Below, in pieces: positions 2,099 to 49,400 of a stretch of DNA of 64,000 bases. Under the pieces are notes generated by a model. It was given only the letters and a program-made list of their open reading frames with translations. It did not search any database and was not told where the DNA came from. The translations under genes and the position numbers were made by a program. Source of the stretch: Prorocentrum cordatum (taxonomy: Eukaryota); NCBI GenBank assembly GCA_963575745.1, contig CAUYUJ010000092.1, positions 496,001-560,000 on the forward strand. Reading direction: 5' to 3'. Position 1 is the first letter of the stretch. The number at the start of each line of letters is the position of its first letter.

Positions 2099-2110
2099 GT
2101 CAGCGAGTAG

Positions 2111-2150
<40 letters not shown>

Positions 2151-3163: not shown

Positions 3164-3263
3164 NNNNNNNNNNNNNNNNNNNNNNNNNNNNNNNNNNNNN
3201 NNNNNNNNNNNNNNNNNNNNNNNNNNNNNNNNNNNNNNNNNNNNNNNNNNNNNNNNNNNNNNN
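3164..3263. other. Assembly gap (100 N)
   Basis: Run of n. Confidence 1.
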
Positions 3264-3668
3264 TCCTCCTCCTCATCCTCCTACTCCTCCTCCACCTCCT
3301 TCTTCGTTTCTTGTGTTTCCTCCTCCTCGTCCTCCTCCTCCTGCTCCTCCTCCTCCTCCTCCTCCTCCTCCTCCTCCTCCCCCTCCTCCTCGTCATCCTC
3401 CTCCTGCTCCTCCTGCTCCTCCTGCTCCTCATCCTCCTCGTGCTTGGGGTCGTGCCAGGCGGATCTCGGGCGGGCGGGGTAAGGAGTGGGGGGAGGGCGA
3501 GGACGATGATGATAACGACGACGGTGACGATGACGATGTATTCAAGCCGCCGCGGCGCCGACAACTCACGGAAGAATGGAGGCAAAATGACGGCCAATCG
3601 TCGCAACCACGTCCGCGGAACGCGGGCGACGTCAGAAGTGGTAAAGTTGGGCCCAGATCGGCTCGGCT

Positions 3669-8822: not shown

Positions 8823-9369
8823 TTTGAGCCAGGAGCTATGCGCAAACGCGCGCGCCGTTCGACGTGCGAGCCACGAAACACTATACAACCTTACGTCTTC
8901 TTGTTCCTCCCACCCCTTCCCCCGCCCCTCCCCCTTCACCTCCTATTACTGGGGGCGGACGTTGCGACGCTATGGTTTTTTTGGGGGGTCGCGGAGCCCC
9001 TGCTCCGACGCGGATGGATTCGCGATTCGCTACCAGCCCAGAAGGGGGCGCCTGCGTCGAACCTCGACGGACCCGTTTCCCCTTTTCCCCTCCTCCCGCC
9101 CTTCCCCAGGATCTGACGCACCCTCCGCTGGCAACCCCTGCGGGCGCCCTGGGCCCCTCCCCGAGGCCCGACGCCTGGAGCACGGAAACTCACCCTGGGA
9201 TCCCCGAGCGACAGATTTGCACGAGCCCGGCCGCGGCGACGATGAGCACCCTACGGAGCAACGATAATTGCAAGAATAATCCCGAGCCCAAAACCTCAAT
9301 CCTCGAAGCTCGCCCAGCCGCCGAGACGGCCGCCCGACGACGACGACGACGACCACGACGACGACGATC

Positions 9370-31400: not shown

Positions 31401-34400
31401 AGGCTGTCGGTGCCGCAGCCGTCGGAGCGGCAGTCGGTGCCGCCGTCGGCGCAGCCGTGGGCGTGGCTGCCGGGGCCGCAGCTGTCGGGGCGCCAATCGG
31501 TGCCGCCCTCGCCGCCGCTGGCGGCGCAACGGCCGGTGCGGCTGTTGGCCCCGGCGGCGCCGCCGTCGGTGATGCCATCGGCGCGGCCGTCCCTGCTCTC
31601 GGTGATGCCATCGGCGCAACCGTCGGTGCCACGGTTGGCGCGGCTGGCGCCGTCGGCGCCGACGGCGCCGCGGTAGGCGCCGCTGTAGGTGCCATTGCAG
31701 CCGCTGCCCGCCCGCCGTCGCCTCCCGATGTCGGGTCTTGGCGCGCATCGGGCCGCTTTTGAGCCACCCCCGCACGCCTCCTCCTTCGGGTCCGCCGCCG
31801 ATGGGCCCGAAAAGGACGTGGTGGGTGCCCCTCGGCCGATCCAATCACAACGCAATTTATGGAGCCTGCTGTGGAAACCGGTCAGGCCCTCGAAGTTGGA
31901 CTGCTGGAGCACGCTCCCGAATACCGGCGTGCCGCCAAGCTCAGGCGCGCTCCGGGATGCGAGCGCGCTGGTGGGCGACAGCGTGCCTGTCGGCACCCAC
32001 GTGCTGTCGAGCACCCGCGTGCCCGTGATAGAGGGCACGGCCCCGCACCTCGCCAGGGTGCGCGCGCGATCCTCCATGTGGTCCGGAGGTATGCGACCAG
32101 TAAGGTCCTCAGCCACCGCCAGCTCCGCCGCTGGGACGTCGCCCCTAAGGCTCGTGCCCCCGCGGCTAAGCCTCGCCTGCATGACCAACGCCGGCTGGGC
32201 GGTACGGGCAGCCAGGCATCTGAACCGAGAAACGTCTGCCTCATTGTGCGTGCCCTGGTGCGCGACCACCCCCGCGGTCGCGATGTCGGCGCCGGCGGGG
32301 CCGGAGGCGCCGTCGCTGGCGCTGGGACCGGCGGCGGCGCCGGCGTAGGCGCGGGCACCAGTGCCAGCGCGGGTGCTGTTGGCGGTGTGGGCGCTGGTCC
32401 CAATGTAGACGGTCATGCCAATGTCGGCGTCGGCGCTGGTCGCTGCGCGGGTCCCGGCGTCGGCGCATGCGCCCGCGTCAGCGACGGCGCCGGCGCCGGC
32501 GTCGTCGCTGGCGTCGTTGTCGGCATAGGCGGTGACGTTGGCGTCGACGTCGGCGCCGGCGTCGGCGGTGGCGGAGGCGGAGTCGCCCTCGCGGCAGTCC
32601 TCGCAGCTCGGCAGGCGTGCTTGGATGGCCGACAGAGTTGTTGTAGCTTGTAGTACATATAGTTAACATCATACATACTAATATGTCACATAACATGTAG
32701 CTAACAGAGACTTAACTACACACATATATACACTTATTAGCCAACTTAATAAGTCGAATAAGTCTAGGTGTTTGTTCGGATGTTTGTTTTTTTTAGGGCG
32801 CCAGTTTTTTTGGTTGGCGTCGTCTGCTGGTTGGACCTGCGGTTTGCCTGCGTTGTGCGTGTTTTCTGGGCGCGCTTGCTTGATGATCGTTGAGCGTTTG
32901 TCAGGTTACGCCAAACAAACTCCTCCTCCATATGTTCCTGCTCCTCCTCCTCCTCCTCCTCCTCCTCCTCCTCCTCCCTCTTCGGCGGATTACCGCCTTC
33001 TTGATCCTCCTCCTCATCCTTCTTCGGCGGATTACCGCCTTCCTCCTCATCATCCCTCTTCGGCGGATTACCGCCTTCTCGATCCTCCTCATCCCTCTTA
33101 CCGCCTTCTCGATCCTCCTCCTCGTCCCTCTTCGGCGGGTTACCGCCTTCCTCCTCCTCCTCCTCCTCCCTCTTCGGCGGATTACCGCCTTCTTGATCCT
33201 CCTCCTCATCCTTCTTCGGCGGATTACCGCCTTCCTCCTCATCATCCCTCTTCGGCGGATTACCGCCTTCTCGATCCTCCTCATCCCTCTTACCGCCTTC
33301 TCGATCCTCCTCCTCGTCCCTCTTCGGCGGGTTACCGCCTCCTCCTCCTCCTCCTCCTCCTCCTCCCTCTTCGGCGGATTACCGCCTTCTTGATCCTCCT
33401 CCTCATCCCTCTTCGGCGGATCACCGCCTTCCTTATCTTTGCATGCTGCGGCGGATCAACCGCTTTCTTTCCTCCTGATCCGCATGCTCTCATTCTGCGG
33501 ATCAGCCGCATTTCCCCTCCCCACCCCTTCCGCGGATCAACCGCGCGCCCCCCATCCTTCGATCTTGCGGATCAGCCGCGTTCTCGGGCGGCTCTACGCC
33601 ATCTTCTGTCGGCGGGTCACTCGCCTCCTCCCTCTTCCCCCCCCATCCGCAGCCTTTTCCGCCTTTCATCGCAGCCTTTTATCGCAGCCCCTTTTGGCTC
33701 GGGCTGCCGCGGGGCGGCGGCGCGTCTCCTGCACGAGAATGGCGCTCCAGCAGGAGCTCCTTCAGCGCGCCGAGGGGGTGGGCCCCTTACTGCGCGCTGC
33801 GAGGGGCCAGGGCGAAGCCGCGTGGAAGCAGGCGTCGGGTGCACAGGCTGCTCGGCTGGTCGAGCTCGTCGGATTGGTGCGCCCGCAAGGCCAGTTGCTC
33901 ATTCGTCTCGCGGGTTTGGCGCAGCAAGACGGCTTCGCGCCTGCCGACGCACAGCTGTTGCAGAACGCCTTGGCCACGGCAGCCTCGAGCAGCGGCGGGG
34001 CGTGGAAGTCGCAGGACTTCGAGCATTTCCCGTATTTCTTGAGTGGTGAAGTGTGGGCCGTGCTCAGCGACCCCCATGGGGACGTCTTGCACAAGGCTCG
34101 GTCTGTTCTGTCGTTTCTCTCGTCGAAGCTGGGCCTCAAGAACCCGTCAGAAGGCACCCTCGCGCACGTGACGGCCCTCGTGACGATCTGCGTAGATGGG
34201 GCCCCAGCGGCCCGCAGCATGAGCCCCCACTTCTTGAAAGACACCTTTGACCACATCAAGACGATGTGGAAGGGCATGGTCAAGGCAGAGCCCTTGGAGA
34301 AGATGGCCGCGCTCCCAGCTGACCCCGACGCGTTCCGAGCTGCGTTCCCCGCCACGTGGGCCTCTGCGTACGGCGGCGGTGGTCCTGCGAGCATCGGAGT

Positions 34401-37400
34401 GTTTTTCGTCGATGTCTCCGTGGTGGCTAAATCGTTCAAGTGGCGCGAGAGGCAGCGCGCAGGGTCCGCGTCGTCGGCGCCACTTTTGCAGGCTCTGCAG
34501 AATATGATGGGTCAGACGCTGCAGCAGCCTCAGCAAGAGAGGCTCGCGAACGGTGCGGTGTTGACGTTCGCAGGGAAGCAGCCGCGCAGCCTCGCTGGCG
34601 TGCAAGCGGCTGCGACGTCGGCCGCAGGGCAGCTCGCGGTGACGGACCTCCCGCAGCAACAGCAGCAGCAGCAGTTGCAGCAGCAGCAGCAAGACAACTA
34701 CAACCTGCAATTGCAGGCCAAGCAGCTCCAGGAACAGCTGCAACAGCAGCAGCAGCAGCAGCAGCATCAGCCGCCGCAGCCTCAGCCCAGTCAGTTCGCC
34801 CTCGAGGACGCCCACTCGGCGGGTGCCTCTGCAGGAGGGGCCCCGCAGGCGAAGAAAGCGAAGAAGGTGGACTCTGTGGAAGCAGCGGCCATGCAGGTAC
34901 ACGCTGCCATGCAGCAGGAGAAGGAGACCAAGGCCAAAGCGAAGGCCAAGGCGAAACCCGCTGCCAAGACATGCGTGCTGAAGAAACCAGCGTCGGCACC
35001 TGTTGGCAAGGCGGCGGTGGTGACCAAAATCAGCGTGGAGAACACGCGCAGCCAGTGCGTCGCGCACTACGGGAGGGGCCCTGGCTCGACCAAGGTGTTC
35101 AAATGGGGCCCGAACACAGGCTACACGAAGGAGACGTCCGAGAAGGCCGCCAAGCAGTGGATCGAGAATCGGCTGCGCGTCGGCTGAGGGGGTGACGGCT
35201 ACGCGTAGCTGTCGGCACGACGCGTGCCATATTCAGTGCAGCCATGCCGACGGATGGCCGTCAGTATGAGCACTTTGCCATGACGTGGGTAGTGCTACGG
35301 ATGGCATCGGCTTTTGGTTTCTTCGCCTGGCGCGCGTTGCGCTCGTGATGAAGCTCGTTCTTCTGTGAACTCGTTGCACCTCTATGCGCGCCACTGCTTT
35401 GAAAGAAAAGGCGTTGAAAAAAGTGCGGGTCAACCGCTTTCAGCGGATCATCCGCTACTTACCACGTTGTGCCAGGTCGGGGCAGGGAGGTCTGAGCAGG
35501 AATATGGAGGGATGGCATGACTAGGAAGGGATGAGACCGAGCAGAAGTTTGCCAGTGAAAAGGGAACCGCCGCTCTGGTCCAGAACCGCCCCCGCTCTGA
35601 ATCGAAGCCACAGGGGCAGAACGGTGGCGGTTCTAGGCCAGAACGGTAGCGGTTCTGGACCAGAACGGGCAAAAATGGAGGTTCATGCGCGTTCGATGCC
35701 GTAGCCGTTTGCGCTCGCAGGGGCGCGCGCGGGCGCGCGCGGCGGGCTCGGCGCGCAGGGCGCCATGGCGGCGCCGAAGAGGTCCGCCTTCGAGGACCTC
35801 CAGAGCTTCTTCGAAGAGGCCGACGGTGCGTTCGATCAGATGGACGCCGAGAGGTCGCACGTGATCGGCTGCCTCAGGAAGGTGCTCGAGGACTCTGGCC
35901 ACGTGGAGGCTGCGGACGTCCGCGACACCCCGCTGGAGGAGCCTGCAGCTGCTGCTTCGAGCTCTGCTGCGTCGGCGACTCTTGAGGTGGAGGTCGATCG
36001 CCCCGTTCGCCCTCGAGAGCAGGTCGTCGACGTCGACGCTCTGGAGCGCTCGGTCGACAACGTCCTGCGTGAAGGCGACGCGAACTCCGCGGGCGACGCG
36101 CCCATGCCCGACGGCGCGGCGGAACGCGTCCAGCAGCTCATGCTGCGGGATCCAGAGTTCGCGCGGATCGCCTTGCTCATGGTGATGAGTCCGCTCTCCG
36201 TGGACTGGAACGACCCCGCCGTCATCAACGTCGAGAAGACGCTGATCTTGGAGTTCCAGTGCCACAAGAAATTCAGGCAGCGGGGTCCCCCTGGCCCATT
36301 GCAGGGAGGGCCCACGGAGTGGAGGGGCCAAGCCTGGAGGCAGAACAGCGGTCGGTGGGGCTCCCGCGGCGGCCGCAGCGTGCGGCTTGCCGAGTTCCAG
36401 GCGAAGTTCGGCAAGGAGCGAGGCACGGAGGCTTTCCTCGAGGACGAGGACCGACGCCGCAGCTTGCGGCAAGACAGCTTCGTGGCGAAGTTCGGCATGG
36501 AGCGAGGCACCCAGGCCTTCCAGGAGGACGAGGCCGCTCGCGCGAGCAAGTCCAAGGCGGTCGCGCGCATGATGGCCGCCCCACCGAAGGCCCACCAGCC
36601 GAGGATGGTGCTGCCGACGGTCGACCCTCCGACCAGCAAGGCGCGCCCGACGCCCAAGATGGTCGCGCCCGTGCCGATCGCGCGGCCCGCGGCCAAGGGC
36701 AAGAGCAAGGAGGCGGTCTCCAGCAAGGGCACTGCTGGCAAGCACGGCAAGGGCTCCGACGAGGACACGGACAAGGGCTCCGACAAGGGCGTTCGCAAGG
36801 GCACGGCCGTCAAGAGCAAGGGCGGCCACAAGGGCGCGGACAAGGGCAAGGACGCGCACGTGGTCAAGAACGTCCTCCAGCCCACGTCCAAGCGCCCCGC
36901 GCCTCGGACGCCGTCGCCGCATCGCAGGCCTAAGCGGCGGGCGACCAATTCGCAGGACGCCAGCGGGCGCGGGCCGTTGCACTTCCTGTGGCGCGCGCTA
37001 TTGTTCTTGGAAAAAAATACGCGTACTTCCTCGGCGGCTCATCCGCCATGGCGGTTTATCCGCCTGTGTGTGCACGAGTGTCGCTGCGCGCGCGTCACGC
37101 GTGTGCTTCCTCGGCGGCTCACCCGCCATGGCGGTTTACCCGCCTGTGTGTTCGCCACGCACATGCTCTCGCACCGTTTTTTCTGTATAGGCGTTTTGGC
37201 TCGAACGCGAAGCGCGCGTGGGCCGCCCGTCGCCGCCAGCTTCCGCATCCATGTCGGACGCTGCGTCCTCCTCCGCTGATGTCCAGCCTGCTGCCGCGCA
37301 CGCTGACGACGGAAGCCCGACGTGGATCATGTGGGGTGGGAAGTGCCCCTTTGGCTCGCAGTGCAGCAAGCGCTCGGCGACCATCAAGTCGTGCCACTCG

Positions 37401-40400
37401 TACGAGGATGCCGTGGAGTCGATCATCCATCACTTGGTGACGTCGCCCTACCACGAGCTCGAGCGCTCCGAGGCTGAATCGGCCGTCGACTTCAACTTGA
37501 TCGAGTCCTGGGAGGTCGACAAGAAGAAGTGGGCCGAGGAGCAGGACAGGTGGCAGAAGAAGCAGCGCAAGAGCTTGCCGTGGCAGCCCACCGCGGAGCC
37601 CGCCATCAGCGCGCCGCCGACGGGTGCTGGCACGGGTCGCATCACGCTCTCGGAGATGCAGGTGAGGGCCTGCGTCGACTCGCTGAAGCGTGCCAAGGTC
37701 TCGGCGGAGAGCGCGGCCAACCTCTGCGCCAAAGCGGCTCGGGCGTTCAACGAGGAGGTCACGTGCATCCAGCAGTGCGTCGAGGTGATCGAGTCGTACG
37801 TCCAGCCGACGCGCGTGCTCCCCCTGCGCTAGGCTGCTGGCGGAGCTCAGGTTTTGGCCACGCGCGTCGGCGCCTCGCTTAGCACGCCCACGTCGGGTGC
37901 TCATTCGCGGGCTCGGACGCCGAATCTTTGCTGGGAACACCAGCACACCTTCCTCGTCGCTGCGCTCATCATCTTGGATCATTGTCACGAGCGGTTCACT
38001 CGCTGATCGGCGGATCATCCGCCAAGGGAAGGGCATCGGCGGGTCGACCGCCATACAGCGGATCATTCGCTACTCAACGATGTGACCGATAACAACCGAT
38101 AACGACCGATAGCGTTTCGATAACGATGTTATCGGATCGACCGATAACAACCGATAACGCCGATAACGCTATGTTATCGGCAACGAAACCACATCCGATA
38201 ACATCAAAATAACATCCGATAACGTCCGATAACGTCCGATAACGTCCGATAACGGTTATCGGAGCCGAAATTGCATCCGATAACGTTGTTATCGGGTGTT
38301 ATCGGTGATCGTTAACGGATGTTATCGCATGTTAGCGCGACATCCGATAACTGTTATCGGTATGTTATCGGTTGTTATCGGATGGTATCGGATGTTATCG
38401 GTATGTTATCGGGCTTATCGGATGTCATCGGCCGTCATCGTCACATCATGATGGCCCCGAGAGGGTTCGCTTCCGCAAACGCATAGCCATTTTTTTGAAA
38501 GCCTAATGTACGCCCATGTTGTTGATGCAACGGGTTGGCGCTATGGCGCGCACGCAAGCATGACCATTGGTCTTTGGGCGCGTCCCCATGGGAGCTTGAT
38601 AGAGGCGCGGCAGCAGCAAAGCTTGGGAAGCTGTTGATGGCACGCGGTGTCGCGACGCGCAACTGAAACCATTTTGGCGGCAGGGCACCAACGCGTGACG
38701 CTCTCATTACCCAGAGAAGCACGACGGTGTGACCCAGAAGTAACGACGGGCCGCTGCTGCTGAAAATCGCCTCCTGAGGCATTGATCGGGGCATGTACGG
38801 GAGATGCACGACGGCCGCCAAACAGGAATCACAACGGGTCATGTTTGCAACAACCCCCTCCTGAAGCAATGACTGGGTTACGTATGCACGTGAGGTACAC
38901 GGCGGCACCCACCCAGTAAAGACGACAAGTCTTTTTTGCTACAATACCCCCTGAGGCACTGATTGGGGCATGTAAGTAAGGCGCACGACGACCGCAATCC
39001 AGGAAAGACGACGAGCCGATTTTGCTACAATCTCCAACTGCGGCACTGAAGGCGGTGTAAACCAGATACATGACGGGCGCGACCCAAGAATCGCGACGGA
39101 CCGTTTTGCTACAACCCCCTTCTGAAGCGCTGATTGGGGCTCTCCCAGACGGCACTGGAGGGCCACCGCAATGCCCGAGGGCTCAGGAAGCTCTGGGAGG
39201 GGTCGACGAAGGCGCCAGAAGGGCCTCCAACAACACGTCGTCGCAACAGCACGGCCTCGCGGCGCCGCCACGGCACGGCGTCGTAACGGGGCGGCTCCTC
39301 TAGGCCCCCTCCTCTTTCTCCTCGCCATCCTCCCTCTTATCTCCCCTCTTGATGCTATGTCCCCCCTCTCTGTACCTGTCGCAACGCTGCACGCGTCGCT
39401 GCCCAACGGGATTGCCCGGGGGGGGGGGGGCGGGAAGTGGATCCACAAACGCGCAACAGGTGATCCACAAACCGCGCCAGGCAATTTTCATACCCCCGGA
39501 GGACCCCCCGCTCGCGCGATCCACAAACTGCGCTTGCACGTGCACGCGCGTCGCCTCCAAAACTTGATCCTTAAACTTGATCCTTAAAATTATATATTGA
39601 TTTTAAACAGAAAATCTGTGGATCAGTTTTCGGGGGGAGATTTTGGCGATTACGTAGCACCCCAAAATTGCGGATAGGAGTGAGGGCGCGGGCGGGCGGG
39701 CGCAGCGCCTGCGACCGCCCCGCAACCAACCCGCCTCGCCACCCGCCCGCGACCCATCGGCCAATGTGACATGAGAGAAAATGCCCTTCCCAGGCCGTAT
39801 CGACCCTCTTGGACCCTTCCCAGGGCCCTCGGAAGTGCCCAAGAGAGCCCGTGACGGCTCCAAAAAACTGCCGAGAGCGGTATCGCGAAGCCTCTCTCGC
39901 GTGACCGATCTCGGAGCCCTCTTGGGAGCCTGTCGGGGCCCTCTTGGAACCTCTTTGAGCCCTCTCGGCGCCCTCTTGGACCTTTCCCAGGGCCCTCGGA
40001 AGGGCCCAACAAAGCCCCAAGACAGCTCCAGGAGGCTCCCAAAAGCGGTCACGCGAAGCCTCTCTCACGTGACCGATCTTTGGGCCCTCTTGAGGCCCGC
40101 TTGGGGCCCTCATTGGAGCCCTCTTGGAGCCTCTTGGAACCCTCTCGGGGCCCTCTGGACCCTTCCTGGGGCCCTCGGGAGGGTCCAAGAGGGCCCCAAG
40201 ACAGCCCCGGGAGGCACCCCAAGAGCGGTTACGCGAAACCTCTCTCGCGTGACCGATCTCGGGGCCCTCTTAGGAGCCTCTTAAATCATCTTCGACTTTC
40301 TGGGAGCTCGCTTTGGGCCTTTTTGGACTCTTCCCAAGGCACTCGGAGGGGCCCAGCAGGGCCCCAAGACGGCTCCAGGAGGCTCCCAAGACCGGTCACG

Positions 40401-43400
40401 CGAAACCTCTCTCGCGCGACCTACCTTGGGGCCCTCTTGGGGCCCTCTTGGAGCTGTCTCGGAGCCATCTTGGGCGCTTCCGAGGGCCCTCAGACGGCTC
40501 CCAGAGAGCCCCAAGACAGCTCCAAGGGAGCCCCGGGGGCAATCACTCAGGGGACCGAACGACTCACCCGCGCCGCGACCCACCCGCAACCCACCCGCGA
40601 CCCACCCGCGACCCATCGGCGCCGCGAGCCACCCGCGACCCACCCGCGCCGCGACCCGGCCGAGTTGCCGATGCGCAAACTCAAAACACATGCGCGCTGT
40701 TTTCAGGGGCGCGTTTGTGGCGTTGGTTATGGCTCAGGGAGCGGGTAGACGTGAGTCATCGCCCTCCTCCGCGGTTTCAGATATTTTGCCGCCCGCCATC
40801 TTGGACATCCACCTTCGCCCGCCCTGAAGCTCAAACCGAGCGTGCGAATGAAATCGAAACAAATCCTCCTTTTCCTCTGGCACACTGAGCGTGGTACTCC
40901 GTTTATCTTACCCCTCCCTCGTCTCGATTGAAACCGTTCTGCTATAACGAAGCGCGACTCGATAGGATCCGTTCTTCTCTTCTCTCCGCGCCTTCGCGTA
41001 CCTCCAGGGGAAAACATTTGCACAGATCGTGTTCTGGACCAGTTGTTTTTTTCTCTCCACGTACCGCATCCTCCTCTCCTCCATCCGCAGCCGTTGTGCT
41101 TGCAGGGCAACGCGCGCGGGCTCCTTGCTTCTGCGCCCCCGTGTCCCATCTCGCCTCTCGCGGTTCCGATGTCGCTGCAGTTGGCCTTGATGCCACCGCC
41201 TGCCGCGGCGCCCGTGCCGACGGCTAAGGCCAAGGGCAAGGCCAAAGCCAAGGCCAAGTCGAAGAGCAAGACGGCCACCGTCGAGATGGCGAATGACGCA
41301 ACAGTTGCTTGGTGGACAAAGTTCAAGTCGCCTGGGTCGGTTGTCTCTGGCTCGGAGGCTGCCGATAGCCCGACGGCGACGACGCTGGCGCTCGCAGCTC
41401 CTGAGGTGGCCGACTTGGGAGACTTCGAGGATGCGCCCGAAGGCGACGATGTTGCCTCGTCGGGGGCCGCTGCCTCGTCCGAACCGCTTGCCGTCGAAGA
41501 CGCCGCCTGCTCGCCGACTCCGACTCAGGAGGTGGCAGACAAGGCTTCTCCCCCGGTGCTCAAGCCGACTCCCACTCCAGGCGAGGTCTTCGTCTGGCAA
41601 GGTCCTGAGGTCAAGCACGAGCCGTCGAACCCAACGTGCTACAGGTGCAAGCAAGAGGTCGATGTCTTGAGGGCACCACTGATTGGGAAAGGCCAGGGCT
41701 CGTGGAAGTGCGAAAAGTGCAACACGCGCGGAACGCAGTTGTCCCGCTTGTTCGGATCGTGGCCACCTGCCAGCTTCAGGAGGCTTGACTCCTCAGTGCA
41801 AGCGAAGTTCTGGCAAGATGCAAAGGAGAAGGCTGGTAAGGATCAGCTCGAGGAGCTGTTCGTCCAGACTCTCACGACGACTCGGATCGAGCAGGAGGTT
41901 GCCCAAGTGGGCGGGGAGTATCTGCCGTTGTCAGTTTACGCCCAGCGTGGGTTCGATGTTACACGCATCGAGAAGGAGTGCAAGGACACCGAGGAACACA
42001 AGATCCTCGGAACTTGCTACCGCGTGGACATCAGGGGTGGCTATTCGAAAACGATCGAGCAGCTCGCCCGCGCCGAGGTGCAGGAGCTGAAAGCGAAGGC
42101 GAAGGCGCCGCCTCCGACGCAGCCGACGCAGCCAGCTCCAGGCAAGAGCGAATCAGATGATTCGGAAAGCGGCTCGAACAAGACGAGCAGCAAGAAGGGG
42201 AATAAGTCGAAGAAACAGAAGAAATCCAAGAAGCAGTCCAAGAAATCCAAGAAGGCCGACAAGAAGGACAAGCGCGACAGGAAGGACAAGAAGTCCAAGA
42301 AGCGCGCAGCGTCCTCGACCTCGGATTCGGATTCGGACTCGAAGTCTGAGAATGACAAGGGCCTGCAGGCGAAACAGAGGAAGCTCGAGCAAGAGAAAGC
42401 CAAACAGGCCAAGAAGAACGTTGCCCTGGCGACCCGCGTCTTGTGCAAGATCGAGAGGCCCCGGATTTCTCTTGATCGCGATCTCAAGGATCCGATGTCG
42501 AAGCACGTGCCGAAGTACACCATCGATCCAGCCAAGAAAAAGCTCAAGGAGCTTGAGAAGCTTTACTCTGAGTTCAGGAAGGTCCACGACGAGCGTGGCA
42601 TGGGGGGTGAGGTGACGACAACGGTGGCTGAAGTGGATGACCTTGTGAAGACTTCGATCGAAGCTGCCGCGCTCCTTTCCAAGCTGCTGAGCACTGCGAA
42701 GAGCAACGTTCCGAGCGGGGACGACGTGTAGGCTCTCCCCGTCTGCGTCTGCCGTGACCGCCCGTCTTCTCACTGCCCGTCTGAGTCTCTGCGGAGACGA
42801 CGTGTTAGGTCGGCGCTGCAGTCGCGCGGGAGGCACCGTGCATGCTTCCAGCCAGCTTTGGCTTCAGGTCCGCCCTGACGACGAGGGGCTGACATGACCC
42901 AGCGCTCGATTAGCCCTGCAGTTTGCCATGACGTGGGTAGTGCCACGGATGGCGCCCGACCGCGCGAGCCCCGACTGCACTTGCTAGTCTCAGGGGACAC
43001 GCCGCGATCACGGGATAGCGCTCAGTTTGCAGTAGCGCTCGGGGTTAACTCACACCGACTTCAATGGGAAGTTGCTCGTGGAAAACCCATCGATAAAAAA
43101 AGCGGTTCAACCGCTCGGCGGATCATCCGCCAATCATTTTCTTCCTCTTCTCAAGCTCAGCCGCGGCTCAACCGCTGAAAAATCCATCAATCAAAAAAAA
43201 GCGGATCAACCGCTCGGCGGATCATCCGCCAATCATTTTCTTCCTCTTCTCAAGCTCAGCAGCGGTTCAATCGCTGAGCAGGTTATCCGCTAGTCGCTCA
43301 TTCCTTTCGTCGGCCATTTCTTCCTCTCATCCACCGTACTTCCATTCCTCCTCCTCCTCCTCTTCCTCGGAGTCACAAGGACTTATTGGCCTCGGTGCAA

Positions 43401-46400
43401 GGGGGGGTGGAACGACCCAGACGACGTCGACGAGGGGTCGCGTTCCACCCCCCGAGGGTTAAAACTGAGGCCAAACTGGGGCCTCAGTTTTAACCCTCAA
43501 GCGGGCCAGGTCACCGTAGGCCATGGGCGTATACGCTGTCCTTTCATCTGATCGCTCCTGATCGCTCCTTCCTTGCGTTCCCCGTGCTTCCATTCCACGC
43601 CTCCTCCCGCTCCTCTCCCTCCTCCTCCTCTCCCTCCTCCTTCGCCTCGCCCCCTTTCACACATCCCTTCCCCTCACTCCCCCATCATCCTTCTCCTGCT
43701 GCTTGTGCTGATGTAGGTTCAGCATCTCCGCCCCGTCGTTCTTTCCGCAGCCATTTCAGCATCGGGCGATCGGCGCCCTGTCCCGCCTCCCGCCCCTCCA
43801 CCGCTGCCTCCCCGCTCGCCTCTGTCGGCCATGGAGCCGCTCGCGAAACGGCAGAGGATCCTCGATATGTTGAGCAGGCGGAACTTCAGCGAGAGCGACG
43901 TCGTGGCGGCGCTCGCCGCGCTGGGAAGAGATGAAGCGGCGTCTCGGCGAGATGTGCGGGAGTGCGTGGATACGTTCACTGCGGACGTTCTCGTTCAGCT
44001 TACGCTGCAAAAGCAGGGTGGCGACGCCTTTGACTGGACCATCGCCAAGTATCAACTTCTCCTCCCGAGGTGTCTTGCCCAGTGCGCGGGTTTCAGAGAG
44101 GAGTTCGAGAATGCAGTGGCGAGGTCACCGAATAGTTTCGACAGGCCGTGGCGCCTGGCGCTGTACATAGATGACGTGGTGCCTGGCGATGTTTTGAGGT
44201 TGAACAACAAGCGAAAGACCACGTGCTGGTATATAGGCATACTTGAGATGGGACGCTATCTGCGATGCGAAGAGGCATGGCTGCCCGTTGGCGTGCTGCG
44301 CGCCACCATCGCTAAAGATCTGCAGGGAGGCTTCCCAGCTGCGGCCAAGGCGCTCCTGCGTTCGCTCCTGCTCGGCTCCGACAGCGTCGCCGTGGCAGGC
44401 GTCAGCGTGCCGTGCGGTGGCCAATCGCGGATTATGCATTTCAAGTTTCAGCGGTTGATCGGTGACGAAGTTGCGACGAAAGCGTTCTTCGACACGAAAG
44501 GCTTTGGCGGCATTAGGTGTTGTTCCATATCGTGCAAGAACGTAGTGAAGCTGAACAAAGATGGCGTGACTGATTCGCTCGCCGATCATCAGACTGGCAC
44601 GTACCTGGTCGACGTTTCGTGCTCTGACCCCTCGCAGTTCGACCCGATGTCAGACGAGGACGTTTGGCGCACGCACGATATTCTGGATGCCGTGCGCAGG
44701 AATGGGGGTGCGTTGAAAAAGGCACAGACAACGATGGGATTTTCTTTGAACGAACACGGCGTTCTGGCCGACAAGGATCTTCGCCCACACGTGTTTCCAC
44801 ATTCCTGCCTGCTGCGCGATTGCATGCACGTGTACCTGGCAGGCGGCATCGTGAATATCGAGATTGGCTTGCTTTTTAATGGTGTTGCTGAGTGTACTCC
44901 TGGTTTTTCCTTCCGTTTGCTGAAGACGTTCGCCGAGGCCGACTGGCATTGGAACCCAGGAGGGCTGACCAGGAGCGAGTTCGCTGACATATTCAACGGG
45001 TCTCGGGAGATGGCGTGGAAATCAAGCGGTGTCTTTCGCGCGGGGGCATCTGAACTCTTGTCTGCATTCCCATTCATCAGATACTTTGTTGTTGAACACG
45101 TTCCCGCGCACAAGGTGCAGTTGGAGCGCCAGAGCTACCTCCGTCTCTGTGACGTTCTGGACAGCATCAACGAGGCAAAGCACTATTCCACGCCCGTTGC
45201 TATGAAAGATATCATGCGGCGTGCAGTTGGCCGTTTCCTTGACGCGCATAAGGCCGCGTACCGCCTCGACTCCATCGTCCCAAAACACCATTATCAGTGG
45301 CACGCTGTGTCAGACCAAGAGGACGACATATTTCTTGATTGCTTTGTGCACGAAAGGAAGAACAAGATCGTGAAGCAATCAATGACCCACATCGCGAACA
45401 CGGCGGCATTCGAGAAAAGCTCGGTCCAGCAGCTTCTCGTCAAGGTGTTCCCAGCGATGGACAAAGTCAGGATGACCGAATTGTGCGAGCCCGTGGCGGT
45501 GAGCCAGCCGTTGTCCGACAAGTTTGGCCAGGTTTGCGTCGTGTCCAAACAGATGAGGTGGCGGGGCTTGCTGCTCAGAGTTGGCAGCGTGGTTTTCATT
45601 CAGAACGCGGCGGTCGAGGTTCAAGCGTGCTTGTCCGCTGGTGGCGTTCTAGCGCTTATCGTGGGAAAGCTTGCGCTGGTGCGTCGCGAGCCGCTCGGTG
45701 GGTACTCTATCTGGACTAGAACGGGACAGTCGGAGCTCCTGGTGCCCGAGGGCGCGCGCAAGGCGACTGGATGGTTCCTCAAGAGCGACAACGCGCTGGT
45801 GGTGATTCACTGAGCTCGGAGAAAATCATCTTGAAAAAAAAAGCGGATCAGCCGCTGTAGCGGATTACCCGCTCATCCGCCCCTCCTCATCATCGTGCTC
45901 ACCACCGTCATCATCATCACCGTCGCTCCTCCACGTCATTTTTTGTCAGTTGGCCCAGGGAAAAAAAGCAACGGCCGCTAGCGGATAAGCCGCCACATGC
46001 GTCGCGTCCCCCCCTCCTTCCACGTCTTCCTCCGCCGCCTGCCTCTCCGCTCGGCTCTCCTCCTTCATTTTCTGTGCCGCGAGTTTTTTTTTCTGCGTCA
46101 GCCCGTTCAGGTGGCCCTTCTTAGGTTAGTTAACTTAGTTGACTTATTTGAAACACTTATTTTTTGTATATGTTGCATGTTATGTCGGATACATATCCCT
46201 AGGTATGTTCTATCCGCAGATGTTATGGACATGTCAACACCTATAAGGTACTATATTGATAATGCAAACATGTCCAGACATATAACTAGGGATCGTGTTG
46301 CTTATAACAAGGGATATCGCAGGTTATAAATCGTACAAGCTACAACAACTCTGTCGGCCATCCAAGTGGAGCGGCCCACAACGGCGGCGGCGAGGGCAAC

Positions 46401-49400
46401 TGTGACGCCCCGGCTGGGCAAGCCCCGCCGGCAGCGTGCGGCATGCGCCCGAGCTGGCTCCCACGGCCTCGCTCCGTCTGCGATGGCGCGGTGCTGACGC
46501 TGGCTCTCGCGGCGGCGTCGGCGCCGGCGCCGGCGTTGGCGGTGGCGTTGGGTTCGGCGTAGGCGGTGGCGCTGGCAGCGCCTGCATCGGCATCGAAGGC
46601 GTCGGCGTCGGCGCTGGCGTCAGTGCTGGCGCTGATGTTGGCGTGGGCCGTGATGCTGGTGCCGACCTCAACGCGGGCGTCCGTGCTGGTGCCGGGTCCC
46701 CCGTCGGAGAACCCGGCGCCAGGCCTGGGCCAATCCCCTCGGCCAATCCAATCACAACACCACAGTCCATGGAGCCTGCCGTTGAGCCCAGCCACACCCT
46801 TGAAGTTGGACTGGGGCACGCTCTCGGATACCAGAGTGCTGCAAGGCCCAAGCGCGCTTTGGGATGCGGGCGCACTGATGGGCGTCAGCGTGCCTGTCGG
46901 ATCCCACGTACTGTCGAGCGCCCGCGTGCCCTCGACAGGGGGCCCGGCCCCGCGCCTCACCAGGGCGTGCGCGCAATCCTCCACGTGATCCGAAGGTATG
47001 CGAACGGTAAGGTTTCCAGCCACCGCCAACCCCGCCGCTGGGACGTCGCCCCTAAGGCTCGTACCCACGCGGCTAAGCCCCGCCGGCATGACCAACGCCG
47101 GCTGGGCGGCACGGGCAGCCACGAAGCTGAACCGCGTAGCGCCCGCCTCATGGTGCGTGCCTCGGTGTGCGACTACGCCCGCGGTCGCGTCGTCGGCACC
47201 GAAGGCGCCGTCGCTGGCGCCGGGACCGGCGGCGGCGCCGGCGTAGGCGCGGGCCCCAGTGCCAGCGCGGGCGTCGTCGGCGGTGCGGGCAGCGGTTCCA
47301 ATGTAGACGGTCATGCCGATGTCGGCGTCGGTGCTGGTTTCTGCGCTGGTCTCGGCGTCGGCGTAGGCGCCGTTGGCGTCGACGTCGGCGGTGGCGGAGG
47401 CGGAGTCGCCCTCGCGGCAGTCCTCGCAGCTTGGCGGGCGCGGAGCGGCCTGCAGCGGCGGCGGCTCGGCGTCGGACCAGGCGGCGGCTCCGGCATAGGC
47501 GTCGGCGTTGGCGCCGTCGCCGGCGTTGATGTCGGCGAAGGCGGGGACGTTGGCGTCGGCGCTCGCGTCGTAGGATGCGGCCTTGGTGCCAGCCTGAGCC
47601 TCGGCATCGGTGTCGGCGTCGGCGCCGGCTTCGCCGCTGGCGCTGATGTTGGCGCAGGCGGTGACGACGGGGTCGACGACGGCGGCGGCGTCGGTGCCGG
47701 GAACGGGGCCCCTGTCGGGGCCCGCGGCACCGAGCCTGGTCCAGTCCCAGTCCCGAACCTCGTCGGCCTCCGCGTCCGTCTTGACCCCGTCCGTCCCCGC
47801 AGCCCTCCTCGAGCCCTCGACGTCGGCGTTGGCGTCGGCGGTGGGGGAGGCGGAGTCGCGCTTGAGGTGGTCCTCGTGGCTCGGCAAGCGCGGAGCGGCC
47901 TGCCGCGGCGGCGGGGAGGGCAGCCGCGACGCTCCAGCTGGGCAAGCCCCGCCAGCAACGTACGGCACGCGCCTGAACTGGCCTCCACGGCCTCGCTCAG
48001 GCGGGGAGCAAACGCGCCCCAACCGCGCGGCGCCGGCTCGCCGGCGCGTGGCCGCGCTCGCGAAGGGCGCGAGACGCGTGCGGCGCGCTGAGCGCGACCG
48101 AAAGCAGAACTGGCAGCGCGCGCGCGCGAGAGCGCCCGCGCGAGCTGCACGGAGCCTGCGGAGCCAAGCCCGTGCGTGCGGAGGCGCGGAGCAGGTGGCG
48201 CAGTCGCCGACGTTAGGGCCAGCGTCGGCGCCGGCGGCAGTGTGGGCGCCGGTGCCCGTGCAGACGTCCCTGTCGGCGTCGGCGTTGGTCCCAGCGCCTG
48301 CGCTGGTATCGGTGCCGACGCCGGCTCTCGCAGCGGCGTCGGCGCTTGCGCCGGCGTCGGCGCTGGCGTTGGTTTCGGCGTAGGCGGTAACGCCGGCAGC
48401 GCCTGCATCGGTAGCGGAGGCGTCGGCGCTAGCGTCGGTGCTGGCGCTGATGTTGGCGTAGGCCGTGATGCTGGTGCCGACCTCAGCGCAGGCGTTGGTG
48501 CTAGTGCTAGGTCCCACGTCAGGGAACCCGGCGCCATGCTTGGACCAACCCATAGCCCAGACCTCGCCGGCCACTGAGCTGGCGTGGGCGATAGCGTCGA
48601 TGTCGGCGCCTGCGCCGGCAGCCGAGGAGGCGGCGGTGCCCGCGCGGCCCTCGGAGCCGATGGCGTTGATGCCGGCATCGGCGGTGATGTTGGGAGCGTT
48701 GGCGCTGGCGCCCGTGCTGGCGGCTGCGGAGGCGGCAACGTCCTCATCGGTGTCGGAGCCGGAGGTGCAGTCGTCGGCATCCAGCCTGGCGGCGGCCCCG
48801 GCGTAGGCGTCGGCCCTGGCGCCGTCGCTGTCGTTGATGCCGGCGCAGGCGGGGACGTCGGGGGCGGCGGCGCCGGTGTCGTAGGTGGGCCCGGTGCCAG
48901 CCTGAGCGTCGGCATCGATGTCGGCGTCGGCGCTGGCGTCGGCGTTGGCGCTGATGTTGGCGCCGGCGGTGACGACGGTGCCGACGACGGCGGCGGCGTC
49001 GGTGCGGGGGACGGGGCCCTCGTCGGGGCCCGCGGCGCCGAGCCTGGTCCAGTCCATGTCCCAAACCTCGTCGGCCTCCACGTCCGTCTCGGCCTCGGCC
49101 GTCTCCGCGGCCCTCCACGTGCCCGCGGTGATGCTCACGATCCCCTGCCCCCCGATGATGGTGCAGGCGGCGACATCGGTGACGAAATCGGCGGCGTCGT
49201 TGGTGCCGGAAACGGGGCCCCTGTCGGTGCCCGCGGTGCCGTGCGTGGTCCAATCCATGTCCCAAACCTCGTCGGCCTCCACGTCCGTCTCGGCCTCGGA
49301 TCCGATCTCCATGAGGCCCCGCGCCTGCTCCGCGGCGGGGTGGCGGCGAGCCCCCACTAACAGTTGCTGCCCCACCTCCAGGGCCTCGTGGGCCTCGCGG

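What the first reader, a model, noticed from the sequence alone, without database searches (positions are those of the whole stretch)
32620..46366. Five-gene CACTA-like 'cargo' transposon with non-CACTA ends and four uncharacterised accessory proteins
Seen: perfect 33-bp TIRs beginning CTTGG (not CACTA/CACTG), a 2-bp TG TSD with a reconstructable empty site, and five intact, intronless, co-oriented ORFs in a genome whose host gene is highly intron-rich. Established: CMC/EnSpm elements usually encode a transposase plus one or two helpers, and 2-bp TSDs occur in non-plant members. Inference: ORFs A-D (AP2-like tail, KFG-repeat/basic, C2H2-like, CxxC ribbon/basic) all look nuclear or nucleic-acid binding. 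They may form a dedicated regulatory or anti-silencing module adapted to histone-poor dinoflagellate chromatin. Identical TIRs and open frames suggest recent activity.
Basis: partly seen in the sequence, partly recalled or inferred. Interest (0 to 1): 0.88.

Follow-up and report, generated by a model that had tools for sequence, protein, structure and literature searches.

The report
Five-gene RAG1-fold DNA transposon, dinoflagellate
This is a real, recently mobile 13.7-kb cut-and-paste DNA transposon whose transposase has the fold of the immune-system recombinase RAG1, and which carries four further conserved genes of unknown function plus its own repeated control motif.

Summary
Perfect 33-bp TIRs (32620-32652 / 46334-46366) are flanked by TG on both sides. 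Contigs from two public runs join the flanks with exactly 13,749 bp missing, which is the element plus one TG.

The 660-aa protein has no Pfam match. It belongs to a very large family (4,184 clusters at 50% identity). Its high-confidence model matches the RAG1 core (Z 15.8) and carries invariant D114/D212/E508 with C(2)C and H(3)H motifs. That is the published signature of the CACTA-Mirage-Chapaev-Transib (CMCT) clade. A BAH-like domain sits at its C-terminus.

ORFs A-D are not one-off cargo. A 9-kb metagenome element, whose transposase is only 37% identical, has the same five genes in the same order, homologous TIRs and 2-bp flanks. It also shares a central palindrome of 10-bp ATAAC-type repeats and clusters of a 13-bp motif (GCGGNTCATCCGC) upstream of its genes.

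The window copy is a slightly damaged one. It holds a nested 2.3-kb insertion and a stop-loss in gene B.

The AP2 label has no sequence support and the C2H2-like label only a sub-threshold one. The anti-silencing idea is untested. I did not detect expression.

Verdict: an apparently undescribed multi-gene lineage of a known transposon clade.

The parts
32618..32619 (.). left copy of the 2-bp target-site duplication (TG)
   Evidence: empty-site joints in runs X1 and X2
32620..32652 (+). left terminal inverted repeat, 33 bp perfect (42 nt at 90%)
   Evidence: core TGG(A)ATGGC..GAGTT shared with the L004 TIR
32963..33431 (+). 42-bp tandem array (11.9 copies), each unit carrying the motif variant GGCGGATTACCGCC
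33451..33579 (+). cluster of 4 copies of the 13-bp motif GCGGNTCANCCGC, upstream of gene A
33736..35187 (+). gene A (483 aa from M85; the ORF opens at 33484): conserved N-terminal domain, poly-Q/K-rich linker and a conserved basic ~50-aa C-terminal tail
   Evidence: homologues P0177/P0178 (99-100%), P0179 (68-72%) and L004 (25-30%)
35425..35455 (+). motif cluster (2 copies) upstream of gene B
35765..37279 (+). gene B (504 aa here; other copies stop at codon 409, i.e. 408 aa, at 36989-36991). The conserved block is VDWN..WR.Q.WR..RWG.RGG
37034..37143 (+). motif cluster (4 copies) upstream of gene C
37251..37832 (+). gene C (193 aa): CP.G..CSK...HL..SPYHE putative zinc finger plus a conserved C-terminal block
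   Evidence: 41% identical to the L004 orthologue; zf-RVT below threshold
38080..38433 (.). central palindromic array of 10-bp CCGATAAC-type repeats
   Evidence: single-strand DNA fold -108.5 kcal/mol, z -14.6; same feature at the same place in L004
38434..40754 (.). nested 2,321-bp insertion (7-bp direct repeat GTCATCG), not part of the canonical element
   Evidence: joint 38433>40755 in a contig of each of the 4 runs
41169..42731 (+). gene D (520 aa): CxxC..CxxC zinc ribbon, conserved [10 protein letters not shown] domain, K/S-rich disordered linker and a C-terminal helical bundle
   Evidence: 21 homologues; alignment; model
43102..43229 (+). motif cluster (5 copies, inside a 99-bp tandem duplication) upstream of gene E
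43831..45813 (+). gene E (660 aa): DDE transposase with a RAG1-core fold (residues ~13-552; D114, D212, E508; CC..C 230-235; H487/H491) and a BAH-like C-terminal domain (547-660)
45843..45993 (.). motif cluster (3 copies) downstream of gene E, in the right subterminal region
46334..46366 (-). right terminal inverted repeat
46367..46368 (.). right copy of the 2-bp target-site duplication (TG)

Best explanation
This is a copy of an autonomous-type cut-and-paste DNA transposon. It belongs to a distinct, apparently undescribed lineage of the CMCT clade (CACTA/EnSpm-Mirage-Chapaev-Transib), and its closest named relatives by protein search are from the dinoflagellate Prorocentrum cordatum.

Shown. 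Gene E encodes an RNase-H-type DDE transposase with the whole-core architecture of RAG1, including the zinc module formed by a C..C pair after the second D and an H..H pair before the E. A BAH-like beta-barrel sits at its C-terminus. The element has homologous TIRs and 2-bp target duplications in two distant members. Five genes (A, B, C, D, E) occur in a fixed order. A central palindrome of 10-bp ATAAC-type repeats lies between C and D. A 13-bp near-palindromic motif occurs in same-strand clusters upstream of the genes and near both ends.

Inferred. E binds the TIRs as a multimer, excises the element and reinserts it with a 2-bp stagger. By analogy with RAG, Transib and hAT enzymes, excision would go through nicking and a hairpin on the flanking DNA. 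The 13-bp motif is a shared promoter or operator that co-regulates five separate intronless genes. One or more accessory proteins bind the motif and/or the ATAAC arrays, as TnpA binds the subterminal repeats of En/Spm; the candidates are A's basic tail and C's zinc finger. B and D are nucleic-acid- or chromatin-associated cofactors. The BAH-like domain tethers or targets the transposase on chromatin.

The window copy itself carries private defects (a nested insertion, a stop-loss in B and H203 in place of Y in E), but it retains perfect TIRs and an intact catalytic triad.
For: Ends and mobility. The TIR is found exactly twice, and 0 of 100 shuffles reach that count. Both flanks read TG. Empty-site joints are seen in 2 of 4 runs laid. 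Contigs 99% or more alike, and many 95-99% alike, were laid in all 4 runs. Near-identical P. cordatum gene models are on record with four different longest-contig lengths: 319,811, 444,965, 670,523 and 631,636.

Transposase. 4,184 representative clusters match at E<=1e-3 and 550 at E<=1e-30. In a 40-sequence alignment D114, D212, E508, C231, K485 and H487 are invariant, and C235 and H491 are at least 90% conserved. My regex counted the PCxxC[KRQ]N form in 24 of 40 sequences; 6 have other spacings and 10 were unmatched. H(3-5)H was found in 38 of 40. The model has pLDDT 90.8, with D114 in strand 107-116, D212 just after strand 204-211 and E508 in helix 505-519. Foldseek gave 46 PDB matches at E<=1e-3, and every listed one is RAG1, amphioxus RAGL or Transib; the best is 1.7e-8. 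VIA-align gave RAG1 Z 15.8 with 448 residues aligned, model 13-552 to RAG1 470-1007. RAGL scored 14.6, followed by ISCth4 10.5, P element 9.8, Transib 9.6 and Hermes 7.3. BAH domains of MET1, TNRC18, DNMT1 and ORC1 scored Z 9.2-9.9 on residues 547-660. [quoted passage not shown] In the Atlas feature search the nearest named clusters are Plavaka (0.93) and Transposase_21 (0.91) (a lead only).

Five-gene unit. Of 11 loci recovered, 7 are under 4.1 kb. L004 carries A (25%), B (48% over 60 aa), C (50% and 33%), D (47%) and E (37%) in the same order and strand, and L003 carries D followed by E. The L004 TIR shares the core TGG(A)ATGGC..GAGTT, and its flanks read CC/CC.

Motif. 33 hits at <=1 mismatch against 1.2 expected (largest shuffle 5), and 29 of the 33 lie inside the element. 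By regex, 19 of 21 window hits are inside the element and 18 of those 19 are on the coding strand. L004 has 16 of 16 on the coding strand, clustered before each of its five genes. L001, L003 and L005 also carry the motif next to E.

Palindrome. DNA folding gives z -14.6 for the window array and -35.5 for the L004 array.
Against: No Pfam transposase family matches E or any of the 40 family members scanned at E<=0.1, and no PDB sequence matches. Clade membership therefore rests on fold and motifs.

The window's termini are CT..AG, not the CA..TG typical of CMCT. In the window's own subclade the cysteine pair is CCSISC rather than C(2)C.

No accessory protein has a supported domain assignment, so all their functions are inference.

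The full 13-mer is absent from the 400 bp directly upstream of gene D in the window.

Among 19 listed between-copy differences inside ORFs, 14 change the protein (one creates or removes a stop) and 5 are silent. There is thus no sign of purifying selection among recent copies. That is expected for transposon copies, but it does not demonstrate function.

Full five-gene synteny is seen in one relative only. The L004 boundary, and hence its 2-bp TSD, depends on where the TIR is taken to start.

The flanks are repetitive, so the 'empty' contigs may be paralogous sites rather than alleles.
Confidence: 0.75

Rival explanations
1. One-off cargo capture: a simple CACTA-like transposon (transposase only) picked up host gene fragments A-D in this lineage, as Pack-type or transduplicating elements do. 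On this reading the ORFs are passengers without a role.
For: The core domain of D also occurs in proteins with N-terminal RING fingers that look like host proteins (P0167, P0168). Between-copy differences show no excess of silent changes.
Against: All four ORFs recur in the same order next to a transposase that is only 37% identical, with 25-50% protein identity and open frames. Each gene in L004 sits behind the same motif cluster.
Confidence: 0.04
2. It is a member of the Transib/RAG-like (RAGL) superfamily proper, that is, a protist relative of the RAG ancestor.
For: The best structural matches are RAG1 and amphioxus RAGL over the whole core. RAGL has been reported in a protist and Transib in bacteria (PMC10462144, passages read). 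The L004 TIR begins GCACAC, which resembles a heptamer.
Against: The TSD is 2 bp, not 5 bp. The window TIR starts CTTGG. The model of D has no propeller, and I found no RAG2-like partner; A-C were not folded. No Pfam RAG1 match appears among 40 members. No CACTA, Mirage or Chapaev transposase appears among the PDB matches listed, so a RAG1 best hit is what a CMC-type enzyme might also give. HHpred similarity to RAG1 is reported for the CMCT lineage ESTA (PMC12730594).
Confidence: 0.07
3. One reading: A-D form an anti-silencing or chromatin-adaptation module specific to histone-poor dinoflagellate nuclei, and are not transposition cofactors or element regulators.
For: The proteins are basic and rich in low-complexity sequence with putative zinc-binding motifs. 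The transposase itself has a BAH-like domain, which hints at an interaction with chromatin.
Against: There is no direct evidence. No match to known silencing suppressors or DNA-modifying enzymes was found. The gene-upstream motif and the repeat arrays point to sequence-specific DNA binding within the element itself.
Confidence: 0.12
4. It is an integrated virus-like or episomally replicating element, with the central palindrome as a replication origin, and only superficially resembles a transposon.
For: A long central palindrome is conserved. The element has several genes of unknown function.
Against: The anatomy is classic TIR + TSD + DDE transposase, with a clean empty site. No capsid, polymerase or packaging homologues were found in Pfam or PHROGs. 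A scan of viral contigs found no relatives: 0 of 60 pattern matches were confirmed.
Confidence: 0.04

Closest known systems
En/Spm (CACTA) transposons of plants, with TnpD transposase and TnpA DNA-binding protein
   Same: [quoted passage not shown] Short TSD. More than one element-encoded protein. Short repeated motifs near the ends that could serve as binding sites for an accessory protein.
   Different: No Transposase_21 Pfam match. Termini are CTTGG, not CACTA. The TSD is 2 bp, not 3 bp. There are five separate intronless genes rather than two products of one alternatively spliced unit. The motif also precedes every gene. The element has a central palindrome and a BAH-like domain on the transposase. 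(TnpA/TnpD biology is recalled, not taken from a call.)
Transib / RAG1-RAG2-like (ProtoRAG) transposons
   Same: Best structural match over the whole catalytic core (RAG1 Z 15.8; RAGL 14.6). The spacing of D, D, C..C, H..H and E is very similar.
   Different: 2-bp rather than 5-bp TSD. No heptamer-type CAC terminus in the window. No RAG2-like propeller gene found. No sequence-level match to the Pfam RAG1 family. Four different accessory genes.
Fungal CMCT lineages Plavaka, ESTA and TET+ EnSpm (Kojima 2025, PMC12730594)
   Same: Divergent CMCT transposases recognisable mainly by motif and fold. ESTA was linked to RAG1 by HHpred and makes 2-bp (TA) TSDs. These elements carry extra conserved genes. 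A Plavaka-bearing cluster is the nearest named neighbour in the Atlas feature search (0.93).
   Different: The extra gene there is a TET/JBP dioxygenase, and none was found here. No PF18759 match. The TSD here is TG/CC, not TA. The host is a dinoflagellate, not a fungus.
Mirage (CMC) transposons
   Same: 2-bp target-site duplication (recalled from the Repbase classification; the CMCT range of 2-5 bp is).
   Different: The sequence relationship could not be tested because no Mirage sequences were available to the tools. I know of no multi-gene Mirage elements (recalled).

Membership tests
CMCT clade (CACTA/EnSpm-Mirage-Chapaev-Transib; Kojima 2025) | DDE catalytic triad on an RNase-H-like fold | tested here: met
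   D114, D212 and E508 are invariant in 40 of 40 aligned sequences. Their places in the model are strand, strand end and helix. The RAG1 core matches at Z 15.8.
CMCT clade (CACTA/EnSpm-Mirage-Chapaev-Transib; Kojima 2025) | [quoted passage not shown] | tested here: met
   PCxxC[KRQ]N in 24 of 40 sequences by regex (6 with other spacing, 10 unmatched by the regex). H(3-5)H in 38 of 40. The window's own subclade has CCSISC. The definition comes from PMC12730594.
CMCT clade (CACTA/EnSpm-Mirage-Chapaev-Transib; Kojima 2025) | 2-5-bp target-site duplication | tested here: met
   TG/TG with an empty site 13,749 bp shorter. CC/CC in L004.
CMCT clade (CACTA/EnSpm-Mirage-Chapaev-Transib; Kojima 2025) | 5'-CA..TG-3' termini (stated as 'in most cases') | tested here: not met
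   The window termini are CTTGG..CCAAG. L004 begins GCACAC, so CAC starts at the second base.
EnSpm/CACTA sensu stricto | Sequence match to Pfam Transposase_21 (PF02992); CACTA termini; 3-bp TSD | tested here: not met
   0 of 40 family members match PF02992 at E<=0.1. Termini and TSD differ.
Plavaka | Sequence match to Pfam PF18759 | tested here: not met
   0 of 40 members match at E<=0.1. There is only an Atlas feature-space neighbour at 0.93, and 38% of that cluster carries the family.
Transib / RAGL | 5-bp TSD and heptamer-like CAC(A/T/G).. TIR ends | tested here: not met
   2-bp TSD; the window TIR starts CTTGG.
Transib / RAGL | RAG1-core architecture (dimerisation/DNA-binding, pre-RNH, RNH, ZnC2, ZnH2 and C-terminal domains) | tested here: met
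   448 residues aligned, model 13-552 to RAG1 470-1007, Z 15.8, rmsd 5.4. Foldseek E 1.7e-8. The RAG1 domain names are recalled.
Transib / RAGL | RAG2-like kelch-propeller partner gene (RAGL only) | tested here: inconclusive
   The model of D has no propeller. A, B and C were not folded. No kelch Pfam hit on A-D.
BAH domain (C-terminus of E) | BAH fold | tested here: met
   Z 9.9 (MET1), 9.4 (TNRC18), 9.3 (DNMT1 BAH1) and 9.2 (ORC1), with 94-108 residues aligned on model 547-660.
BAH domain (C-terminus of E) | Sequence match to Pfam BAH; histone-reading aromatic cage | tested here: not met
   No Pfam hit on residues 546-660 at E<=10. The cage residues were not examined.
AP2 DNA-binding domain (tail of A) | Sequence match to Pfam AP2 (PF00847) | tested here: not met
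   No AP2 hit on the 59-aa window tail or the 65-aa L004 tail at E<=10.

The most novel reading that the evidence does not exclude
This is the type example of an undescribed, superfamily-rank lineage of RAG1-fold (CMCT) transposons that is among the most abundant 'dark' protein families of dinoflagellates and related plankton. On this reading the lineage is self-regulating. An element-encoded DNA-binding protein (A or C) recognises the 13-bp palindromic motif in front of each of the five genes and near both ends. Another protein loads onto the ATAAC-type arrays of the central palindrome and the subterminal regions to assemble the transposition complex. The transposase's built-in BAH-like reader does for this element what the RAG2 PHD finger does for RAG, coupling DNA cleavage to a chromatin mark. 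The motif-plus-gene units would then be the first compact, portable promoter/factor pairs known for dinoflagellates.
Probability: 0.25. Interest if true: 0.85.

Novelty: new variant of a known kind. Interest (0 to 1): 0.66.

Why it matters
First, DDE transposons usually encode one or two proteins. A five-gene unit conserved down to 37% transposase identity means the extra genes matter to the element, and none of them has a known fold or family.

Second, the transposase shows the full RAG1-core architecture with a chromatin-reader-like domain fused to it, in a protist lineage outside Transib/RAGL. That bears on how widespread, and how old, the RAG-type catalytic core and its coupling to chromatin are.

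Third, the family is very large (4,184 clusters at 50% identity) yet has no Pfam model. Its P. cordatum members carry the source name 'RNA-dependent RNA polymerase', so it is probably mis-annotated or left unmasked in dinoflagellate gene sets.

Fourth, dinoflagellate promoters and transcription factors are very poorly known. A 13-bp motif repeated on the coding strand upstream of every intronless gene of a mobile element is a concrete, testable candidate promoter or operator for these hard-to-engineer organisms.

Tried and rejected
Whole-genome census: no genome is held for this window. I therefore could not count copies or TSDs or run a dN/dS analysis over full copies.

Earlier findings: nothing on record by place or by sequence.

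Sequence-level family searches for E and for A-D gave nothing above threshold: Pfam, PHROGs, and PDB sequences with a single protein and with a profile.

A scan of viral contigs with alignment A2 confirmed 0 of 60 pattern matches.

Expression: no RNA holder was listed among 19 runs. All four runs laid are contigs of DNA or unknown type, so nothing can be said about transcription, trans-splicing or introns.

Structure of D: the core and the C-terminal bundle are modelled with confidence. Foldseek found no match at E<=1e-3. VIA-align returned only generic helical-bundle matches to residues ~391-520 (Z<=9.9, within the noise range for helical proteins). The zinc-ribbon core domain was effectively not tested.

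Complex prediction, E with D residues 150-322: no verdict (score 0.00, controls not run). This is neither for nor against binding.

Atlas: a new sequence was not accepted. For the A homologue P0179 there was no usable feature hit, and the Atlas model is poor (pLDDT 0.38; all TM<0.2).

Depth ratios (element about 25-60, nested insertion about 7 in X1) hint at several copies per genome. The tool states that contig depth is not a copy number, so I make no claim from them.

The matches to the 13-mer at 1648-1966 are part of an unrelated 159-bp tandem repeat and are not another element copy.

Literature: searches for dinoflagellate + DNA transposon + TIR + transposase (8 papers), Transib + dinoflagellate (4), EnSpm + Symbiodinium (2), RAG1-like/transposase/protist/BAH domain (6), Lanisha (3) and P. 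cordatum + transposable elements (8) found no description of this element family. Repbase and Dfam could not be consulted, and supplementary tables of the dinoflagellate genome papers were not read. A prior Repbase entry therefore cannot be excluded.

Full report
**1. The observation**

The 33-base end sequence occurs exactly twice in the 64-kb window, at 32620-32652 (+) and 46334-46366 (-), without mismatch. None of 100 dinucleotide-preserving shuffles gave two matches. The repeat finder extends the arms to 42 nt at 90%. Both ends are flanked by TG.

The element (63% G+C) interrupts a 75% G+C repetitive stretch. Five co-oriented ORFs are present. At this G+C content there are also many long antisense ORFs, for example 429 aa antisense to ORF B, so ORF length alone proves nothing.

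**2. Independent confirmation of the ends and of mobility**

I laid Logan contigs of four public runs on 32000-47000. Two runs (X1, X2) contain contigs that join 32616 to 46366. This skips 13,749 bp, which is the 13,747-bp element plus one TG, and gives exactly the predicted empty site. The same two runs also join 32617 to 46368 with one C between, which is the same site reading CG instead of TG.

The flanks are repetitive, so these contigs may be paralogous rather than allelic sites. Either way they show the uninterrupted target and fix the duplication at 2 bp.

All four runs hold contigs 99% or more alike, and many 95-99% alike. Near-identical P. cordatum gene models for A and E are on record with four different longest-contig lengths. 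The family has therefore amplified recently.

**3. The window copy is not the canonical one**

In each of the four runs a contig joins 38433 to 40755. This removes 2,321 bp bounded by a 7-bp direct repeat, GTCATCG. That stretch is a nested insertion rich in high-copy simple repeats, and the canonical element is about 11.4 kb.

At 36991 contigs in three of the four runs (X1-X3; X4 has no cover there) read A. This makes codon 409 of ORF B a TGA stop. B is therefore 408 aa elsewhere, and its last 96 codons in the window are a stop-loss read-through into the upstream region of gene C.

At 44437 all four runs read T, giving Y203. P0001 and P0002 also have Y at that residue.

Of the 25 listed differences that I classified, 19 lie in ORFs: 14 are non-synonymous (one is the stop) and 5 are synonymous. 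Recent copies therefore drift neutrally, as transposon copies do. A further 167 differences were not shown by the tool.

**4. The 660-aa protein**

It has no Pfam, PHROGs or PDB sequence match. An exhaustive HMMER search nevertheless found 4,184 representative clusters at E<=1e-3, 2,251 at <=1e-10 and 550 at <=1e-30. The only source names seen are for the two P. cordatum models, which UniRef labels 'RNA-dependent RNA polymerase'. The fold contradicts that label.

From the roughly 156 proteins listed, I aligned the window protein with 39 that were near full length. D114, D212, E508, C231, H333, K485 and H487 are invariant. C235, H491 and R509 are at least 90% conserved. My regex found PCxxC[KRQ]N in 24 of the 40 (6 have other spacings, 10 were unmatched) and KHHxxxH-type H(3-5)H in 38 of the 40. 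The window's subclade has CCSISC. None of the 40 members matches a transposase Pfam family at E<=0.1, and a profile search of PDB sequences found nothing relevant.

**5. Fold**

AlphaFold2 run on that alignment gave mean pLDDT 90.8 and pTM 0.89. D114 lies in strand 107-116, D212 directly follows strand 204-211, and E508 lies in helix 505-519. [quoted passage not shown]

Foldseek against the PDB gave 46 matches at E<=1e-3. Every listed one is RAG1, amphioxus RAG1-like or Helicoverpa Transib, and the best is 9jpu_A at 1.7e-8.

The Foldseek-independent search gave these scores:
- RAG1 4wwx_E: Z 15.8, rmsd 5.4, 448 residues aligned, model 13-552 to RAG1 470-1007.
- BbRAGL: Z 14.6.
- ISCth4: 10.5.
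- P element: 9.8.
- HzTransib: 9.6.
- Hermes: 7.3.

Residues 547-660 form a separate beta domain that matches BAH domains: MET1 at Z 9.9, TNRC18 at 9.4, DNMT1 BAH1 at 9.3 and ORC1 at 9.2, with 94-108 residues aligned. Pfam BAH does not match that stretch.

**6. Classification**

[quoted passage not shown] The paper names this the CMCT clade, and says it generates 2-5-bp TSDs and mostly has CA..TG termini. It also reports that ESTA was linked to RAG1 by HHpred.

The present family meets the DDE, C..C/H..H and TSD criteria. The window does not meet the terminus rule, and the family matches none of the Pfam models for members of the clade. The Atlas feature search on homologue P0003 put a Plavaka-bearing diatom cluster (0.93) and a Transposase_21-bearing cluster (0.91) as the nearest named neighbours. 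This is a lead, not a test.

No CACTA, Mirage or Chapaev transposase appears among the PDB matches listed, so a RAG1 best hit does not make this a Transib. The 2-bp TSD, the CTTGG terminus and the lack of any RAG2-like gene argue against Transib/RAGL membership. Transib and RAGL make 5-bp TSDs (PMC10462144, passages).

I therefore file it as a new lineage within CMCT.

**7. The accessory genes are a conserved part of the element**

A scan of JGI metagenome contigs returned 11 loci, 7 of them under 4.1 kb.

- **L004 (9,058 bp):** tblastn and ORF listing show the same order and strand, A 448-1872, B 2167-3297, C 3551-4237, D about 5014-6522 and E 6778-8769. Identities to the window proteins are 25% (A, over 526 columns), 48% (B, 60-aa block), 50% and 33% (C, two blocks), 47% (D core) and 37% (E).
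- **L003:** it carries D followed by E.
- **A possible third case:** a D homologue (P0157, 47%) and an E homologue (P0004, 55%) are both recorded with a longest contig of 10,178 nt, so they probably share a contig (inference).
- **Other homologues:** D has 21 homologues down to 23% identity. A has one at 68-72% on a 2,284-nt contig.

The remaining loci are too short to be informative.

**8. Shared non-coding anatomy**

(a) TIRs. L004 ends in inverted repeats (positions 20-89 and 8979-9048). These begin GCACACTGGAATGGCGGGCGGAGTT, which is homologous to the window's CTTGGATGGCCGACAGAGTT from TGG onward. The flanks read CC/CC if the G is counted as part of the TIR.

(b) A 13-bp near-palindrome, GCGGNTCATCCGC.
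- With <=1 mismatch it gives 33 hits in the window against 1.2 expected (largest shuffle 5). Of these, 29 are inside the element.
- With a slightly looser regex, 19 of 21 window hits are inside the element and 18 of those 19 are on the coding strand.
- The window clusters lie at 33451-33579 (before A), 35425-35455 (before B), 37034-37143 (before C), 38010, 43102-43229 (before E) and 45843-45993 (after E).
- A 42-bp tandem array at 32963-33431 adds about 12 copies of the variant GGCGGATTACCGCC.
- L004 has 16 of 16 on the coding strand, in clusters 76-122 bp upstream of the ATG of each of its five genes, plus one after E. For D, the ATG is taken as my inferred start at about 5014.
- L001, L003 and L005 carry the motif next to E.
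- The window lacks a full copy directly upstream of D.

(c) A central palindrome lies between C and D in both elements. It is built of 10-bp units, CCGATAAC.. in the window and GGGAATAACA in L004. Single-strand DNA folding gives -108.5 kcal/mol (z -14.6) and -205.9 kcal/mol (z -35.5) respectively. ATAAC/GTTAT-type words also recur in the AT-rich subterminal regions. This is clearest in L004, which has a 53-nt subterminal inverted repeat at 98% and four roughly 22-bp repeats at the right end.

**9. What the accessory proteins look like**

- **A:** a conserved N-terminal domain, a poly-Q/K-rich linker and a conserved basic tail, [IV]S[IV]E..RSQ....G.GPG..K.FK. Pfam AP2 does not match the tail at E<=10.
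- **B:** a short conserved block, VDWN.P..I..EK...KF..RGP..P..GGP..WR.Q.WR....RWG.RGG.
- **C:** CP.G..CSK followed after about 20 residues by HL..SPYHE, which is a possible CCHH finger. The only match is zf-RVT at 1.4e-4, below its threshold. There is also a strongly conserved C-terminal block.
- **D:** four invariant cysteines (C157, C160, C181, C184), a conserved [14 protein letters not shown] domain, a K/S-rich disordered linker and a confident C-terminal helical bundle. No informative fold match was found.

None of these is a recognisable enzyme.

**10. Most likely mechanism**

Shown: the anatomy described in sections 1-8.

Inferred from family knowledge: E multimers bind the TIRs, cut the element out and reinsert it with a 2-bp stagger. 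In RAG, Transib and hAT enzymes, excision goes through a nick and a hairpin on the flanking DNA.

Inferred from position and strand bias: the 13-mer is a shared promoter or operator for five separate intronless genes. It may double as a subterminal binding site.

Inferred by analogy with TnpA of En/Spm (recalled): one or more of A-D bind the 13-mer or the ATAAC arrays, regulate expression or help to pair the ends.

Inferred from fold only: the BAH-like domain links the transposase to chromatin.

I give about 0.75 to the overall statement (an autonomous-type CMCT transposon with five conserved genes) and about 0.3 to any particular role for an accessory protein.

**11. Novelty and limits**

Six literature searches found no description of this family. 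Repbase and Dfam could not be checked, and supplements were not read.

I could not search the host genome, could not detect RNA and had no structure jobs left for A-C.

The finding is a new multi-gene variant of a known transposon clade. It is noteworthy for five reasons: the RAG1-type core outside Transib/RAGL, the fused BAH-like domain, the conserved four-gene accessory set, the element-wide motif, and the sheer size of an unannotated family.

Noticed in passing
window 38434-40754: A nested 2,321-bp insertion bounded by a 7-bp direct repeat (GTCATCG). It sits exactly at the right edge of the central palindrome and contains 167-180-bp and 11-bp tandem repeats that are very high-copy in the runs (summed contig depth up to about 32,000). 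It is absent from a contig in each of the 4 runs. Its own nature (weak TCAC..GTGA ends) was not determined.
   Followed up: partly
window 1560-2060 (- strand): A 159-bp tandem repeat whose unit contains a tRNA T-loop-like GTTCGAATCC followed by GCGGGTCATCCGC. This accounts for the only exact off-element matches to the 13-mer. It may be a tRNA-derived repeat.
   Followed up: no
window 46340-51094 (- strand): A 1,584-aa open frame in 75% G+C repetitive DNA contains three actin-like stretches (Pfam Actin, 1.4e-56) followed by Ala/Asp/Gly-rich repeats. It looks like an actin pseudogene or fragment embedded in repeats. The transposon sits in the repeat part, not in the actin part.
   Followed up: partly
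P0001, P0002 (P. cordatum gene models): Both models of the transposase carry deletions relative to the window ORF. P0001 lacks the stretch that contains H487/H491/E508, and P0002 lacks about 32 residues after D114. They look like spurious predicted introns or variant copies. UniRef names both 'RNA-dependent RNA polymerase', which the RAG1-like fold contradicts.
   Followed up: partly
P0167, P0168, P0171, P0172 (homologues of D): More distant relatives of the D core carry N-terminal RING fingers (zf-RING_2 at 1e-6). The zinc-ribbon/[10 protein letters not shown] domain therefore also occurs in putative E3-ligase-type proteins outside this element.
   Followed up: no
window 34653-34780: The CAG/poly-Q tract inside gene A attracts very high summed depth (about 1,100-3,900) and many loose ends in all four runs. 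It is a generic repeat, and the length of this linker is probably variable among copies.
   Followed up: no
L004 8900-9000: The right subterminal region of the metagenome relative has about four tandem ~22-bp units (ACAACTAAGTTATGACACATAT). A 53-nt subterminal inverted repeat (248-300 / 8856-8908, 98%) lies inside the TIRs. These are candidate accessory-protein binding sites.
   Followed up: partly
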